Of a DNA stretch of 42,060 nt, positions 14,726-17,377 are shown piece by piece. The notes beneath the pieces were generated by a model that worked only from the letters and a program-made list of their open reading frames with translations, did not search any database and was not told the DNA's origin. Numbering within the stretch: position 1 is the first letter of the stretch; every line of letters begins with the position of its first letter. Source of the stretch: a virus; the UHGV virus genome UHGV-0384735. The stretch is one strand, 5' to 3'. The position numbers and the translations under genes are program-made.

Positions 14726-15829
14726 TTATGAAAAATATGTGATTTCTCTATCTTGATTTGGCTGAGGTCTTCTAAAAGAGCATTGCAGAATTTTATTGTC
14801 CTTTAGCTTTTTCAATACGGGTTCACAATGTTCTGGGAGCATCCATAAATCACAACATTTATCATAGAGTGCGGATTCTGAAATAGGATGATTCTCTAAA
14901 ATAAAGAGTTTAAATTGTTCCTGAAGATTTTCTATATGAGTTTTTTTAAAAGCAAACAAAAGTTGACTGTCTTTATTTGGCTGATCTTCATGTAGGAAGA
15001 AATTTGCCAACCCTTCTACAGGATCTTCTTTCCAACACAGGCGTAAAAATTGATCTATTCCTCTTCTGCTTCCAGAAAAATAGATTAAGCCGTAAATATT
15101 TGTTTTTTTCTTAAAAGCAAATGATCCGAAAAATAGTTTTTTCTCTAAAGGGGCTTCTCTAAATGCTTTTAATATTTGAGTATGAACATGTCTATAATCT
15201 TTGGGATTTTTGAATTTGTATCCCATATCAGAAAATCGATTTTGAAGTTCTTTAAAACGGTGCAAAGACGAGGAAGCCATAAAAACCATACAATCTGTAT
15301 AGTAGCATTTAGACAAGCTAATAAGCTTCTCCATATCGAAATGAGCCATTCCAAATTGATCAATAAAAAGAATATTTGCAGTATTTGTTTTCCTTATTTC
15401 TTCTATATGATCATTGAAGGAAGTCTCAAAATCTGATGTTTTAAACTCAATTTTTATATGTGGATGGGAAGATAGACTGTCTCCAAAAATGTCTTTGATA
15501 TTTTTCTGGAGGGAGTTAATACTTTTTTCTTTACGGTCAAAAAAATGAAAATATATTGGTTTTCCCCATAGATGTTTGGTTTGAGGTGCCGTTGCCATTT
15601 CCAATATTGTTTTAATGGCAAGAAGAGGGCTACCATAACGTCCTAATGCATCCATTCCTGGTCCTGCAAAAAAGTCATAAATATTTATGGACTTAACAGG
15701 AGAAGTAGGAGGCAAATTTAGGAATACTGCGACAGCACTCTTTAGGTAACTGGCGTATATATTGAGTTTTTGAAGAGTACCTGCATCAAAAGCACGATTG
15801 TGAAATCCTGTATTACTTGACATTAACAA
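14726..15829 (-). CDS. tcmP: Three-Cys-motif partner protein (TcmP-like) with a possible Rossmann/MTase-like FAGPG motif
   Basis: 367 aa, about 33% GC. The start is 4-10 nt after the stop of the upstream Gp37/Gp68 gene (AAGGAG RBS, then the TTG at 15829 or the ATG at 15823). INIYDFFAGPGMDALG resembles SAM-binding motif I. The family assignment is from memory of the TcmP family that co-occurs with Gp37/Gp68 proteins. Confidence 0.6.
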   Translation of the reverse strand: MLMSSNTGFHNRAFDAGTLQKLNIYASYLKSAVAVFLNLPPTSPVKSINIYDFFAGPGMDALGRYGSPLLAIKTILEMATAPQTKHLWGKPIYFHFFDRKEKSINSLQKNIKDIFGDSLSSHPHIKIEFKTSDFETSFNDHIEEIRKTNTANILFIDQFGMAHFDMEKLISLSKCYYTDCMVFMASSSLHRFKELQNRFSDMGYKFKNPKDYRHVHTQILKAFREAPLEKKLFFGSFAFKKKTNIYGLIYFSGSRRGIDQFLRLCWKEDPVEGLANFFLHEDQPNKDSQLLFAFKKTHIENLQEQFKLFILENHPISESALYDKCCDLWMLPEHCEPVLKKLKDNKILQCSFRRPQPNQDREITYFS

Positions 15830-15832
15830 GCA

Positions 15833-16585
15833 TTATACTCCTTTATATACAGGAATGCAACGGAATTCCGGTATGCTTCTATAGTGGGTTCCATCCAGTT
15901 CAGATCCTGTAACTTTTTTATTCCGCCCTCCCCATTGTTTGAAGAAGAAAGGAATGGAGCGTTTTTCCGCCTGGTCTCTGATGCTGCGTACCCATTCCGG
16001 TTTGATTGGGCGGGCGTTGGGTCCGCTTTCGCCTCCAACAATGATCCAGTCAATGAAAGATAGGTTCATGGGACCCAAGTCCTCCAGCAGGGGTTCGCAA
16101 CTGAGGAAGCGAAGTGCGGCCGGCGTTTGACGGAGTGTATCAATTCTGGGGAGACCTTGCTTTTTGTTCTCAACACTTACTCCCCACCAGATATGAGGAT
16201 GCAATTCCATGTTGGGAAAATTCTTCTGAAGAAAGTCTCTCATTCTTTCAGGCCTTTTTGTCAAGACCTGATAAATATGTTGTCTGGCTCGCAACATCAC
16301 CTGAATGACTTGCTTGATAAATTCGTCTGGAACCTTTTCATGGAAAAGGTCACTCATGGAGTTAACGAATATCATTCTAGGCCTTTTCCATTTGATGGGA
16401 ATGTCAAGGTTGTCACGGACTAGTACAACGTCAAATCCTTTTTCAAACGGATGGCCTTTGATGCCTCTCCATCTTTCAGCAAAGGCATAGGCATAGCAAT
16501 TTTTACAACCATCGCTGATTTTCGTGCATCCACGAACGGGGTTCCACGTTGCGTCAGTCCACTCTATTTTACTATTATCGCTCAT
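15833..16585 (-). CDS. Phage Gp37/Gp68-family (DUF5131) three-Cys-motif protein
   Basis: 250 aa. The N-terminus [25 protein letters not shown] carries a C-x6-C-x2-C motif. IVGGESG lies mid-protein. It starts 15 nt after the cI stop on the same strand. Confidence 0.65.
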   Translation of the reverse strand: [250 protein letters not shown]

Positions 16586-16600
16586 AAAATTCTTTTTGGA

Positions 16601-17377
16601 TTAAGCTTTCTCCCACCTATCCAGCGTTTCCACATAGATGCCGGAGATTTTGCCGCCGTCCATGGGTTCTATGTCTCCGAAGTCGGGGTTGATGGGATGG
16701 AGGGTGTATTCCATTTTACCGGTTTCCGGGTTTTTCCTGCGGACCAGTTTTTTGAGCGTCACGCCGCGTTCATCATGGTATTGAACAATGGTTCCGGGTT
16801 TGGGGATGGGGGGGATAGTGTATTTTTTCATGATGACCACGGAGCCGTCCGGGATGGAGGGTTCCATAGAGTGACCGTTGACGCGCAGCAGGTATTCCCC
16901 TTTTTCCAGTTCACGGTATAGCCGGATGTCCTGCGGAATGGTGTCTCCATCCGCCAGGTTGCCGGCTGCAATGTTGCCGATGATTCGTCCCTGAGCCTCC
17001 AAAGGAGGGGTTGTGAATGTTTCTACCGGGGTAAACTGCTGGCTGGGAGCTTCTGCTTTCCTTTTCTGATGTGCCTTGGCTGTGACTTGAAGGATATGGG
17101 AAACCATATCCTCTATAGTTTTTTTTGCTTCATCCGCCATGGCGCGAAGTTGCTTTTCAAAGTCTGGCGGAAGCTCAAACTCAATTTCTTCCTCTCCTGA
17201 CATCAATTTTTCAATGAGGGCGAGTTTGGCGGGAGGAATGGGGCGGTTTGTTGTAATCCAATTATCAACAGTTCTCTTGCTAACCAGAGTTTTTTCAGCA
17301 AGCCACTCACGGTTTTTGCCGATGGTTTTTAACCAGTCTTTGATATCTTTTGCATTGAGCATGTACGCATTTTGCAC
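16601..17377 (-). CDS. cI: CI-like repressor: N-terminal XRE HTH plus C-terminal S24 (LexA-like) autopeptidase
   Basis: The HTH region is LNAKDIKDWLKTIGKNREWLAEKTLVSKRTVDNW. The S24 motifs are VNGHSMEP (Ser) and TLKKLVRRK (Lys). The tool start is a GTG at 17377; an in-frame ATG sits at 17362. The gene is divergent from a Cro-like gene. Confidence 0.85.
   Translation of the reverse strand: MQNAYMLNAKDIKDWLKTIGKNREWLAEKTLVSKRTVDNWITTNRPIPPAKLALIEKLMSGEEEIEFELPPDFEKQLRAMADEAKKTIEDMVSHILQVTAKAHQKRKAEAPSQQFTPVETFTTPPLEAQGRIIGNIAAGNLADGDTIPQDIRLYRELEKGEYLLRVNGHSMEPSIPDGSVVIMKKYTIPPIPKPGTIVQYHDERGVTLKKLVRRKNPETGKMEYTLHPINPDFGDIEPMDGGKISGIYVETLDRWEKA

What the first reader, a model, noticed from the sequence alone, without database searches (positions are those of the whole stretch)
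14726..17377. Lysogeny-operon cargo of a Gp37/Gp68 three-Cys protein and its TcmP partner. Candidate undescribed two-gene system.
A Gp37/Gp68-family (DUF5131) protein carrying a C-x6-C-x2-C motif ([25 protein letters not shown]) sits directly 5' of a TcmP-like partner. Only a 4-10 nt gap with an AAGGAG RBS separates them, so they look translationally coupled. The pair begins 15 nt after the stop of the CI repressor on the same strand, with no terminator between. It is therefore predicted to be transcribed with cI in lysogens, the classic expression mode of prophage-encoded defence or superinfection-exclusion cargo. The pair is compositionally foreign (about 33-45% GC against about 58% for the backbone). 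TcmP carries a motif-I-like FAGPG (IYDFFAGPGMDALG), which suggests a Rossmann/SAM-binding fold. The three-Cys protein could ligate a metal or Fe-S centre, and its GGESG element is reminiscent of radical-SAM GGE motifs, though weakly. To my knowledge this conserved gene pair has no assigned function. Its position and operon context suggest a nucleic-acid modification or phage-defence activity that benefits the lysogen.
Basis: partly seen in the sequence, partly recalled or inferred. Interest (0 to 1): 0.8.

Follow-up and report, generated by a model that had tools for sequence, protein, structure and literature searches.

The report
Prophage radical-SAM and methyltransferase-like gene pair
An Akkermansia prophage carries, just after its repressor gene, a tightly linked pair of genes (a radical-SAM enzyme and a methyltransferase-like partner) that is already listed as an untested candidate phage-defence system, so it is a real and well-placed example of a known unknown, not a new kind of system.

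Summary
On the minus strand, an S24/LexA-type cI-like repressor (16601-17377) is followed after 15 nt by a DUF5131 gene (15833-16585). A TcmP gene (14726-15823/15829) follows after a further 3-9 nt. No terminator is predicted before a strong hairpin beyond hicA. Profile searches place both proteins firmly in their families.

Structure prediction shows that DUF5131 has a radical-SAM fold; its best structural match is spore photoproduct lyase. TcmP has a class I SAM-methyltransferase fold, closest to RlmJ and Trm1, plus a C-terminal winged helix.

In 80 genomes from many phyla the two genes are almost always adjacent and co-oriented, and nothing else around them is conserved. Fourteen loci (17.5%) carry Type I restriction-modification genes within 10 kb, several with the pair inside the operon.

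In Akkermansia phages the slot between cI and hicA is a swappable cargo site. Phage Chambord carries a C5-methylase, a GmrSD-like protein and a HEPN protein there instead. A Gordonia phage independently places a TcmP homologue directly after its immunity repressor.

The pair is not undescribed. It is PADLOC candidate PDC-M30, NCBIfam TIGR04474, and RadicalSAM.org Megacluster-5-2 (CX6CX2C). Its function is still untested.

The parts
16601..17377 (-). cI-like repressor with an N-terminal HTH and a C-terminal S24 self-cleaving domain (GHSMEP ... LKKL). It is the first gene of the predicted lysogenic transcript.
   Evidence: Pfam Peptidase_S24 E=1.5e-9 and a weak YdaS/HTH hit. phrog_4 transcriptional repressor E=1.7e-15. 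Divergent small ORFs start at 17498.
17378..17497 (.). Immunity-region intergenic spacer between cI (-) and the divergent early genes (+). It is the presumed site of the maintenance promoter and operators.
   Evidence: Short direct and inverted repeats were found (for example TTTTGCAnnnAGCnTG x2 and CA(C/A)AAAGCGTG x2). None was tested. The promoter scan was not above chance.
15833..16585 (-). DUF5131 / phage Gp37-Gp68 family protein, 250 aa. A predicted [4Fe-4S] radical-SAM enzyme with C20-x6-C27-x2-C30.
15838..15843 (-). AAGGAG Shine-Dalgarno-like hexamer inside the 3' end of DUF5131. It lies 8 nt before the TTG and 14 nt before the ATG of TcmP.
   Evidence: Direct reading of the sequence.
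14726..15829 (-). TcmP (three-Cys-motif partner protein), 365-367 aa. It has a class I SAM-methyltransferase-like fold: motif I YDFFAGPGxD, acidic D98, and invariant D157-Q158-x-G160 at the motif IV position. A C-terminal winged helix covers residues 298-350. The probable true start is the ATG at 15823.
14329..14574 (-). hicA toxin-family gene (likely start at the ATG near 14535). It has the same orientation and is probably on the same transcript, but it is a conserved flank of the cargo slot and not part of the pair. No hicB was found.
   Evidence: PF07927 E=3.7e-13. phrog_353. The region is retained at 89.7% identity in phage Chambord, which lacks the pair.
14281..14308 (-). Intrinsic terminator-like hairpin (12-bp stem, 7 G-C pairs, T-run). 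It is the predicted end of the cI-DUF5131-TcmP-hicA transcription unit.
   Evidence: Terminator scan.
14120..17047 (.). A 2.93-kb mosaic cassette: the cI C-terminal domain, DUF5131, TcmP, hicA and the terminators. It is about 99% identical in other Akkermansia prophages whose remaining DNA is about 82% identical or cannot be aligned.
   Evidence: blastn of L007, L088 and L089 against the window.

Best explanation
The two genes form one self-contained, horizontally mobile functional unit. DUF5131 is a small radical-SAM enzyme whose three cysteines (Cx6Cx2C) hold a [4Fe-4S] cluster that cleaves S-adenosylmethionine to a 5'-deoxyadenosyl radical. TcmP is a SAM-binding, methyltransferase-fold protein with a winged-helix domain. 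It most resembles the RNA base amino-methyltransferases RlmJ and Trm1.

I infer that TcmP supplies target recognition, and possibly a methyl transfer, on a nucleic acid, and that the highly conserved DUF5131 supplies the radical chemistry. Together they would modify or damage DNA or RNA.

In this Akkermansia prophage the pair is cargo in a swappable slot directly behind the cI-like repressor and is read through from the repressor transcript. It would therefore be made in lysogens, like lambda rexAB. Its most likely benefit is protection of the lysogen against other phages or foreign DNA. This is the role already proposed for it, without validation, as PADLOC candidate PDC-M30.

Shown here: the family memberships, the folds, the conserved motifs, the obligate gene linkage, the cargo-slot behaviour and the association with restriction-modification loci. 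Inferred: Fe-S and SAM chemistry, physical interaction, a nucleic-acid substrate, co-transcription and the anti-phage phenotype.
For: **Identity**
- PF07505 E=3.4e-99 and TIGR04474 E=3.5e-30.
- PADLOC PDC-M30B E=2.5e-104 and PDC-M30A E=3.5e-76.

**Folds**
- It also gives a sequence-level hit to TIGR04471, 'radical SAM mobile pair protein A', at E=3.8e-25.
- It is listed in the radical-SAM superfamily with CX6CX2C, in the same megacluster as SPL (PMC9477430).

**Conservation**
- C20, C27 and C30 are at least 97% conserved.
- TcmP D52, G56, G58, D157, Q158 and G160 are invariant or nearly so in 80 homologues.

**Linkage**
- About 77 of 80 genome loci from many phyla have the two genes adjacent and co-oriented, in either order, with gaps of at most 30 nt in 70 of 75.
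- Pairwise identities of the two proteins correlate at r=0.84.
- No third gene is conserved.
- DUF5131 is about 60% identical across loci where TcmP is about 30% identical. This is the pattern of a conserved catalytic part with a variable recognition part.

**Defence context**
- 14 of 80 loci carry Type I R-M genes within the flanks of up to 10 kb. In several the pair sits inside the hsd operon; in L032, L034 and L053 the TcmP stop abuts or overlaps the hsdM start.
- A Type III-like operon reads N6_N4 MTase - DUF5131 - TcmP - ResIII.
- In Leptospira p74 a Type ISP enzyme is followed by TcmP and DUF5131.

**Lysogeny cargo**
- The order S24 repressor, DUF5131, TcmP is kept in three diverged prophage lineages.
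- The 14120-17047 cassette is 99% identical in otherwise divergent Akkermansia prophages.
- Phage Chambord holds a C5-MTase, GmrSD_N and HEPN in the same slot.
- Gordonia phage ThankyouJordi has its immunity repressor followed 3 nt later by a TcmP homologue, with a convergent DUF5131.
- No terminator is predicted between cI and the pair.
Against: - No experiment anywhere in the searched literature shows anti-phage activity. PDC systems are 'guilt-by-embedding' candidates only (PMC10855318).
- The pair contains no recognisable nuclease, pore, NADase or other classic effector.
- It has no obvious way of telling self from non-self.
- 180 isolated phages carry DUF5131, often among early lytic genes and without a detectable TcmP. 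That argues for a phage-beneficial role for at least part of the family.
- TcmP motif IV is D-Q-x-G rather than (D/N)PP(Y/F), and the residue between Q and G is not consistently aromatic. Catalytic methyl transfer is therefore uncertain.
- Similarity to RlmJ is structural only: hhalign probability is 0.8% and there is no PDB sequence hit.
- Co-transcription rests on consensus scans that may not fit Akkermansia signals.
Confidence: 0.45

Rival explanations
1. The pair is a self-serving nucleic-acid modification module of mobile elements, an anti-restriction or epigenetic mark comparable to Mu Mom or orphan phage methylases. It would modify the DNA of the phage or host so that it escapes restriction in the next host. 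It would not attack incoming phages.
For: - The partner has a methyltransferase fold and retains its SAM-binding motifs.
- The pair contains no effector or nuclease domain.
- DUF5131 is widespread in isolated phages, including among early lytic-cycle genes next to RecT.
- In a mycobacteriophage it is paired with a PAPS-reductase-like protein, a fold used in DNA thiolation.
- Its frequent position beside methylases and R-M genes would also fit a modification role.
Against: - Here and in Gordonia phage ThankyouJordi the partner sits in the repressor operon. That predicts expression in lysogeny rather than during lytic replication.
- Most copies are chromosomal or on plasmids, inside defence loci: 339 genome loci against 5 IMG/VR contigs.
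- TcmP of this subfamily is absent from 50,697 isolated phage genomes by tblastn.
Confidence: 0.25
2. The pair produces a small-molecule antiviral, in the manner of prokaryotic viperins. DUF5131 would convert a nucleotide into a chain-terminating or otherwise toxic analogue, and TcmP would bind or methylate the nucleotide or its product.
For: - Radical-SAM enzymes are established in defence: pVips (from my own knowledge), Ophion (10.1101/2025.09.30.679545) and HXS (listed).
- Such a product could be tolerated when made constitutively in lysogens.
Against: - The best structural match, and the radical-SAM megacluster neighbour, is the DNA-acting spore photoproduct lyase, not viperin.
- TcmP carries a winged-helix domain and most resembles enzymes that act on polynucleotides.
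- No nucleotide kinase or other nucleotide-metabolism gene is conserved nearby.
Confidence: 0.1
3. The pair is a selfish addiction or stabilisation module, or neutral hitch-hiking cargo, with no defence or modification benefit. Its presence in defence islands would simply reflect insertion hot spots.
For: - It is a compact two-gene cassette with tight coupling, patchy distribution and foreign GC.
- Toxin-antitoxin genes are neighbours: hicA here, and YoeB/Phd and SocA in L002.
Against: - DUF5131 is under extreme purifying selection, about 60% identical across phyla, with the catalytic-looking motifs intact.
- Both proteins are enzyme-sized, with intact cofactor motifs.
- The stop-start overlaps with hsdM in several independent operons argue for integration into host function.
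Confidence: 0.07

Closest known systems
PADLOC-DB v2 phage-defence candidate PDC-M30 (A = TcmP-like, B = DUF5131)
   Same: Both window proteins hit the PDC-M30 models over their full length (A E=3.5e-76, B E=2.5e-104) and are adjacent. My own survey reproduces the embedding in R-M operons that led to the candidate call.
   Different: PDC-M30 is a bioinformatic candidate with no validated phenotype or mechanism (PMC10855318). The repressor-operon prophage context documented here is not part of that definition.
[quoted passage not shown]
   Same: Both scores are above the curated cutoffs. The defining partnership with a three-Cys Gp37/Gp68 protein is met here and in about 77 of 80 surveyed loci.
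   Different: The Akkermansia-clade TcmP is a divergent branch. It departs from the consensus (at least 90% of homologues) at 11 positions, and its DUF5131 lacks a fourth Cys (C206) that is present in 92% of homologues.
Radical-SAM superfamily, RadicalSAM.org Megacluster-5 (5-2 DUF5131; 5-3 spore photoproduct lyase)
   Different: There is no Pfam Radical_SAM (PF04055) hit at E<=0.01. The Cys spacing is x6 rather than x3. At 250 aa it is much smaller than SPL. The substrate and reaction are unknown.
RlmJ (23S rRNA m6A2030) and Trm1 (tRNA m2,2G26) amino-methyltransferases
   Different: There is no significant sequence relationship. Motif IV is D-Q-x-G rather than DPPY. TcmP adds a C-terminal wHTH and lacks the inserted helical subdomain of RlmJ. 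It is always paired with a radical-SAM enzyme.
Lambda cI-rexA-rexB and other repressor-linked prophage exclusion or defence cargo
   Same: The cargo genes lie directly downstream of, and co-oriented with, the lysogeny repressor, and no terminator is predicted between them. The slot holds different defence-type cargo in related phages.
   Different: The proteins are unrelated. Expression in lysogens has not been measured. The same cassette also lives outside prophages, in R-M operons and on plasmids.
Known radical-SAM-containing defence systems (prokaryotic viperins; Ophion; HXS)
   Same: A radical-SAM enzyme sits in a defence-associated locus, and viperin is the second-best structural match.
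   Different: The partners and architectures differ. Ophion is rSAM + PHP + PRTase. HXS uses an rSAM maturase of a repeat peptide (listed). pVips are single genes of a different radical-SAM subgroup.

Membership tests
Pfam PF07505 (DUF5131 / phage Gp37-Gp68) | Full-length HMM match above the gathering score | tested here: met
   331.7 bits against a cutoff of 28.9, E=3.4e-99, profile positions 1-243 of 243.
Pfam PF07505 (DUF5131 / phage Gp37-Gp68) | N-terminal three-Cys motif C-x6-C-x2-C | tested here: met
   C20, C27 and C30 are present and at least 97% conserved in 77 homologues.
Radical-SAM superfamily | Partial TIM-barrel core with the Cys loop after beta1 | tested here: met
Radical-SAM superfamily | Sequence match to the canonical Radical_SAM profile and a CX3CX2C motif | tested here: not met
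   No PF04055 hit at E<=0.01. The spacing is CX6CX2C, a documented variant. A sub-cutoff hit to TIGR04471 (E=3.8e-25) links it to a family that is named radical SAM.
Radical-SAM superfamily | A [4Fe-4S] cluster and reductive SAM cleavage to 5'-deoxyadenosine | not testable with these tools
   This needs anaerobic purification, UV-vis/EPR and a 5'-dA assay.
   GGESG (184-188) follows the strand at 180-184, the sixth strand of the model, not beta2. No superposition could be made.
NCBIfam TIGR04474 (TcmP) | HMM score above the curated cutoff | tested here: met
   105.8 bits against 53, E=3.5e-30, profile positions 3-263 of 263.
NCBIfam TIGR04474 (TcmP) | Encoded next to a three-Cys Gp37/Gp68 protein | tested here: met
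   The gap in the window is 3-9 nt. The genes are adjacent in about 77 of 80 loci.
PADLOC PDC-M30 | Both A and B component models match adjacent genes | tested here: met
   A E=3.5e-76 and B E=2.5e-104.
PADLOC PDC-M30 | Demonstrated anti-phage activity | not testable with these tools
   No experimental report was found in the searches. PDCs are described as not validated.
Class I SAM-dependent methyltransferases | Seven-strand Rossmann-like fold with a glycine-rich motif I and an acidic residue after beta2 | tested here: met
Class I SAM-dependent methyltransferases | Methyl-transfer activity | not testable with these tools
   The motif IV position is D-Q-x-G, which is atypical.
RlmJ family (rRNA m6A methyltransferase) | Significant sequence or profile similarity and a DPPY motif IV | tested here: not met
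   hhalign probability is 0.8%. hmmsearch --max gives E=0.08 over only 14 residues. There is no Pfam hit. Motif IV is DQFG.
NCBIfam TIGR04471 (radical SAM mobile pair protein A) | Score above the equivalog cutoff and pairing with 'pair protein B' | tested here: not met
   88.7 bits against a cutoff of 355. The partner here is TcmP, not a second radical-SAM protein (compare).
Repressor-linked lysogenic cargo operon (lambda cI-rexAB type) | Cargo co-oriented directly downstream of an S24/cI repressor with no terminator between them | tested here: met
   The gap is 15 nt and no terminator-like site is found. The arrangement is conserved in L002 and L100.
Repressor-linked lysogenic cargo operon (lambda cI-rexAB type) | Cargo transcribed in the lysogen from the repressor promoter | not testable with these tools
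   This needs RNA-seq or transcript mapping of an Akkermansia lysogen.
HicAB toxin-antitoxin (as possible third component) | HicA with an adjacent HicB antitoxin, co-conserved with the pair | tested here: not met
   HicA is present, but no hicB-sized ORF lies before the terminator. hicA is kept in phage Chambord without the pair and is absent next to the pair in L002.

The most novel reading that the evidence does not exclude
The pair could be a previously uncharacterised kind of immune or epigenetic machinery. A variable methyltransferase-fold/wHTH subunit (TcmP) would pick a nucleic-acid target, and a radical-SAM subunit related to spore photoproduct lyase would act directly on DNA or RNA. 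The outcome would be either a new radical-installed base modification or a 'radical restriction' of unmarked nucleic acid, analogous to a Type III Mod/Res pair but with radical chemistry in place of a nuclease.
Probability: 0.25. Interest if true: 0.85.

Novelty: new member of a known kind. Interest (0 to 1): 0.5.

Why it matters
It is extremely conserved and has no known reaction. Its TcmP partner family has about 3,900 clusters at 50% identity.

If the pair proves to be a defence or modification system, it would add radical chemistry on nucleic acids to the known immune repertoire and assign a function to thousands of genes. These include cargo of prophages in the gut symbiont Akkermansia muciniphila.

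This window adds a clean natural experiment: a cargo slot behind cI that holds this pair in some phages and a methylase/GmrSD/HEPN set in another. It also points to a tractable model, Gordonia phage ThankyouJordi gp41/gp42.

What was found is not a new kind of system, though. It is one more instance of a catalogued candidate.

Tried and rejected
- **PDB sequence searches.** Single sequences and profiles of both proteins found nothing, even at E<=10.
- **TcmP against E. coli RlmJ.** hhalign and hmmsearch --max were not significant; only the GSPL loop aligned. I do not file TcmP as an RlmJ-family member.
- **AFDB50 Foldseek.** The library was unavailable. The BFVD viral fold search returned only weak, generic methyltransferase matches.
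- **Literature searches.** I searched for DUF5131, TcmP, PF07505, TIGR04474, PDC-M30, COG4422, PF22560/'GMT-wHTH', and radical SAM with anti-phage. No functional study turned up, only catalogue mentions. What 'GMT' stands for in PF22560 could not be established.
- **A conserved third gene.** All-against-all clustering of flanking ORFs in 80 loci found none.
- **hicA as part of the system.** Rejected.
- **tblastn of TcmP against 50,697 phage genomes.** No match. Only my 80-sequence HMM detected the Gordonia homologue.
- **Rfam and tRNA scans of the window.** Nothing found.
- **Promoter scan.** Hits were not above the shuffled expectation, so no promoter is claimed.

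
Full report
**What is in the sequence**

All features of the finding lie on the minus strand. An S24/LexA-type cI-like repressor spans 16601-17377 (Peptidase_S24 E=1.5e-9; phrog_4 'transcriptional repressor' E=1.7e-15). Fifteen nucleotides after its stop comes a 250-aa DUF5131 / Gp37-Gp68 protein at 15833-16585 (PF07505 E=3.4e-99). A 365-367-aa TcmP follows at 14726-15823/15829 (TIGR04474 E=3.5e-30, above the curated cutoff).

The DUF5131 stop is 3 nt from a TTG and 9 nt from the ATG that homologues use. AAGGAG sits at 15843-15838. No terminator-like site lies on this strand between cI and the end of TcmP. The first is a 12-bp hairpin with a T-run at 14308-14281, after a hicA gene.

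GC content is 32.9% for TcmP and 45.4% for DUF5131, against about 55% for the backbone.

**Where the window comes from**

The region is 92% identical, in pieces, to Akkermansia phage Chambord. The TcmP gene is 100% identical to one in an A. muciniphila MAG contig of 312 kb (L007). The window carries a T7-type head-tail connector, an integrase and a 3,222-aa polyvalent protein. It is therefore a temperate Akkermansia podophage or prophage.

**What the proteins are**

- then SuiB, lysine 2,3-aminomutase, lipoyl synthase, HydE/HydG and RlmN

DUF5131 also gives a sub-cutoff sequence hit to NCBIfam 'radical SAM mobile pair protein A' (E=3.8e-25). C20, C27 and C30 are at least 97% conserved among 77 homologues.

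This agrees with a published catalogue. RadicalSAM.org lists DUF5131 as Megacluster-5-2, with a CX6CX2C variant of the cluster motif, next to spore photoproduct lyase in Megacluster-5-3 (PMC9477430). It is therefore probably not the canonical GGE motif. That conclusion is an inference and the established anatomy of radical-SAM enzymes.

**Is the pair a unit?**

A scan of one genome per species returned 339 confirmed loci, of which I examined the best 80.
- In about 77 of them a DUF5131 gene lies immediately next to TcmP on the same strand. The order is DUF5131 then TcmP in 52 loci and TcmP then DUF5131 in 25.
- Median gaps are 7 nt and -2 nt, and 70 of 75 gaps are at most 30 nt.
- Pairwise identities of the two proteins across loci correlate at r=0.84.
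- DUF5131 is about 60% identical to the window copy where TcmP is about 30% identical.
- The wHTH is the most variable part of TcmP.
- Clustering of all flanking ORFs found no third conserved gene.

The pair is a self-contained two-gene module. It looks like a conserved catalytic part joined to a fast-evolving recognition part.

**Genomic company**

The flanks are otherwise highly variable. The commonest neighbours are restriction-modification genes. Fourteen of 80 loci carry Type I hsdR, hsdS or hsdM within the flanks of up to 10 kb. In several the pair is inside the operon:
- L034 reads HsdR-HsdS-RT-DUF5131-TcmP-HsdM.
- In L032, L034 and L053 the TcmP stop abuts or overlaps the hsdM start.
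- A Vicinamibacterales locus reads N6_N4 methylase - DUF5131 - TcmP - ResIII.
- Leptospira biflexa p74 has a Type ISP enzyme followed by TcmP and DUF5131.
- A P. aeruginosa plasmid has integrase - DUF5131 - TcmP near two methylases.

This is the 'guilt-by-embedding' signal on which PADLOC-DB v2 based its phage-defence candidates. Both window proteins match candidate PDC-M30 over their full length (A E=3.5e-76, B E=2.5e-104). PDCs are explicitly unvalidated. The only phenotype-related statement I found is a correlation: PDC-M30 was predicted in 32 of 100 P. aeruginosa strains, 68.8% of which were classed as phage-resistant (PMC10855318).

**The lysogeny-operon idea**

- Two further prophage lineages keep the order S24 repressor, DUF5131, TcmP. 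Their TcmP is 67% and 61% identical to the window's, and the repressor of one of them (L002) is 44% identical to that of L007.
- The block 14120-17047 is about 99% identical in Akkermansia prophages whose other DNA is about 82% identical or cannot be aligned. The block holds the cI C-terminal domain, the pair, hicA and the terminators. It behaves as a recently exchanged cassette whose right junction lies inside cI.
- Phage Chambord keeps the cI C-terminal domain and the hicA flank. Between them it carries a C5 cytosine methylase, a GmrSD_N (DUF262) protein and a RiboL-PSP HEPN protein. The slot is therefore a hot spot for defence-type cargo.
- In the unrelated Gordonia phage ThankyouJordi, the immunity repressor gp43 is followed 3 nt later by gp42. 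gp42 is annotated 'methyltransferase' and belongs to the TcmP family by my HMM (E=3.6e-25; its motif IV is VDPFGY). A DUF5131 gene, gp41, is convergent, and the integrase is nearby.

Co-transcription itself remains a prediction.

**Counter-evidence and limits**

DUF5131 alone occurs in 180 isolated phage genomes, often among early genes next to RecT and without a detectable TcmP. In one mycobacteriophage it is followed by a PAPS-reductase-like protein. The wider family may therefore serve phage-beneficial nucleic-acid chemistry.

The pair has no recognisable effector domain and no evident way of telling self from non-self. Only five IMG/VR contigs carry this TcmP subfamily, and three of them are this phage. 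The module is mainly chromosomal or plasmid-borne.

**Most likely mechanism**

I commit to the following, with stated uncertainty. TcmP binds SAM and a nucleic-acid target through its methyltransferase-like pocket and wHTH. DUF5131 uses a Cx6Cx2C-bound [4Fe-4S] cluster to generate a 5'-deoxyadenosyl radical and carries out chemistry on that target. The module is expressed with cI in lysogens and benefits the lysogen, most probably by interfering with incoming phage or foreign DNA.

My confidence by step:
- real two-gene unit: about 0.95
- radical-SAM fold plus methyltransferase fold: about 0.9
- nucleic-acid substrate: about 0.55
- anti-phage role: about 0.5
- the whole statement: 0.45

The rivals are a self-serving anti-restriction modification (0.25), viperin-like production of a small molecule (0.1), and selfish or neutral cargo (0.07).

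**Novelty**

The families, their partnership, the radical-SAM assignment with CX6CX2C and the candidate-defence label are all already catalogued. The window is a new member of a known, still uncharacterised kind.

New here are the fold-level description of TcmP, the cargo-slot evidence in Akkermansia phages, the recurrence behind the repressor in a Gordonia phage, and the alternative PAPS-reductase partner. These observations sharpen the hypothesis and point to tractable test systems, but they do not reveal the function.

Noticed in passing
window 14329-14574 (-): A HicA-family toxin gene with an intact GSH motif has no hicB-like ORF before the terminator at 14308-14281. It is a conserved flank of the cargo slot, 89.7% identical in phage Chambord.
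   Followed up: partly
L001 (Akkermansia phage Chambord ON453894) 5262-8072: The slot between the repressor and the hicA-like flank holds a C5 cytosine methylase, a GmrSD_N (DUF262) protein and a RiboL-PSP HEPN protein in place of DUF5131/TcmP. It looks like a modification plus type-IV-like/HEPN defence set, but it is annotated only as 'DNA methyltransferase' and hypothetical proteins.
   Followed up: partly
L093 (Gordonia phage ThankyouJordi MK801727) 3992-6570: The order is immunity repressor gp43, then the TcmP-family 'methyltransferase' gp42 after a 3-nt gap, with a convergent DUF5131 gp41 overlapping by 4 nt, close to integrase gp38. The same theme appears in an unrelated actinophage with a cultivable host.
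   Followed up: partly
L094 (Mycobacterium phage prophiGD11-3) 4001-6114: DUF5131 (annotated 'RNA methyltransferase') is directly followed by a Cys-rich PAPS-reductase-like protein. This may be an alternative partner class for the radical-SAM enzyme.
   Followed up: no
L034 1396-12531; also L053, L032, L013: The pair is embedded inside Type I R-M operons. In L034 a reverse transcriptase gene (RVT_1) is embedded alongside it, between hsdS and the pair.
   Followed up: partly
window 15833-16585 (-), residue 206: The window's DUF5131 and its close Akkermansia-clade relatives have Ala, Thr or Val where 92% of homologues have a fourth cysteine (in the RDQC motif).
   Followed up: no
window 2500-12168 (+): A single 3,222-aa ORF has ART-PolyVal (ADP-ribosyltransferase) and LPD3 domains. 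It is a 'polyvalent' giant phage protein, probably injected.
   Followed up: no
window 12202-14121: A cluster of lower-GC accessory genes lies between the giant gene and the immunity region. It holds a 203-aa ORF with a signal-peptide-like N-terminus (GC 30%, no family hit), a YHYH-domain protein (GC 52%), and an SNase-family nuclease with a PBCV basic-adaptor tail. An SNase gene also sits near the pair in the diverged prophage L002.
   Followed up: no
window 25926-26903 (-): A 325-aa ORF on the opposite strand to its neighbours has 32% GC and no Pfam hit. It is another probable moron.
   Followed up: no
window 31764-32870 (+): The tyrosine integrase lies about 14 kb from the cI-like repressor instead of next to it, which is an unusual layout for a lysogeny module.
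   Followed up: no
H7, Gordonia phage Bosnia NC_070790: This phage shows two separate DUF5131 matches in one genome.
   Followed up: no
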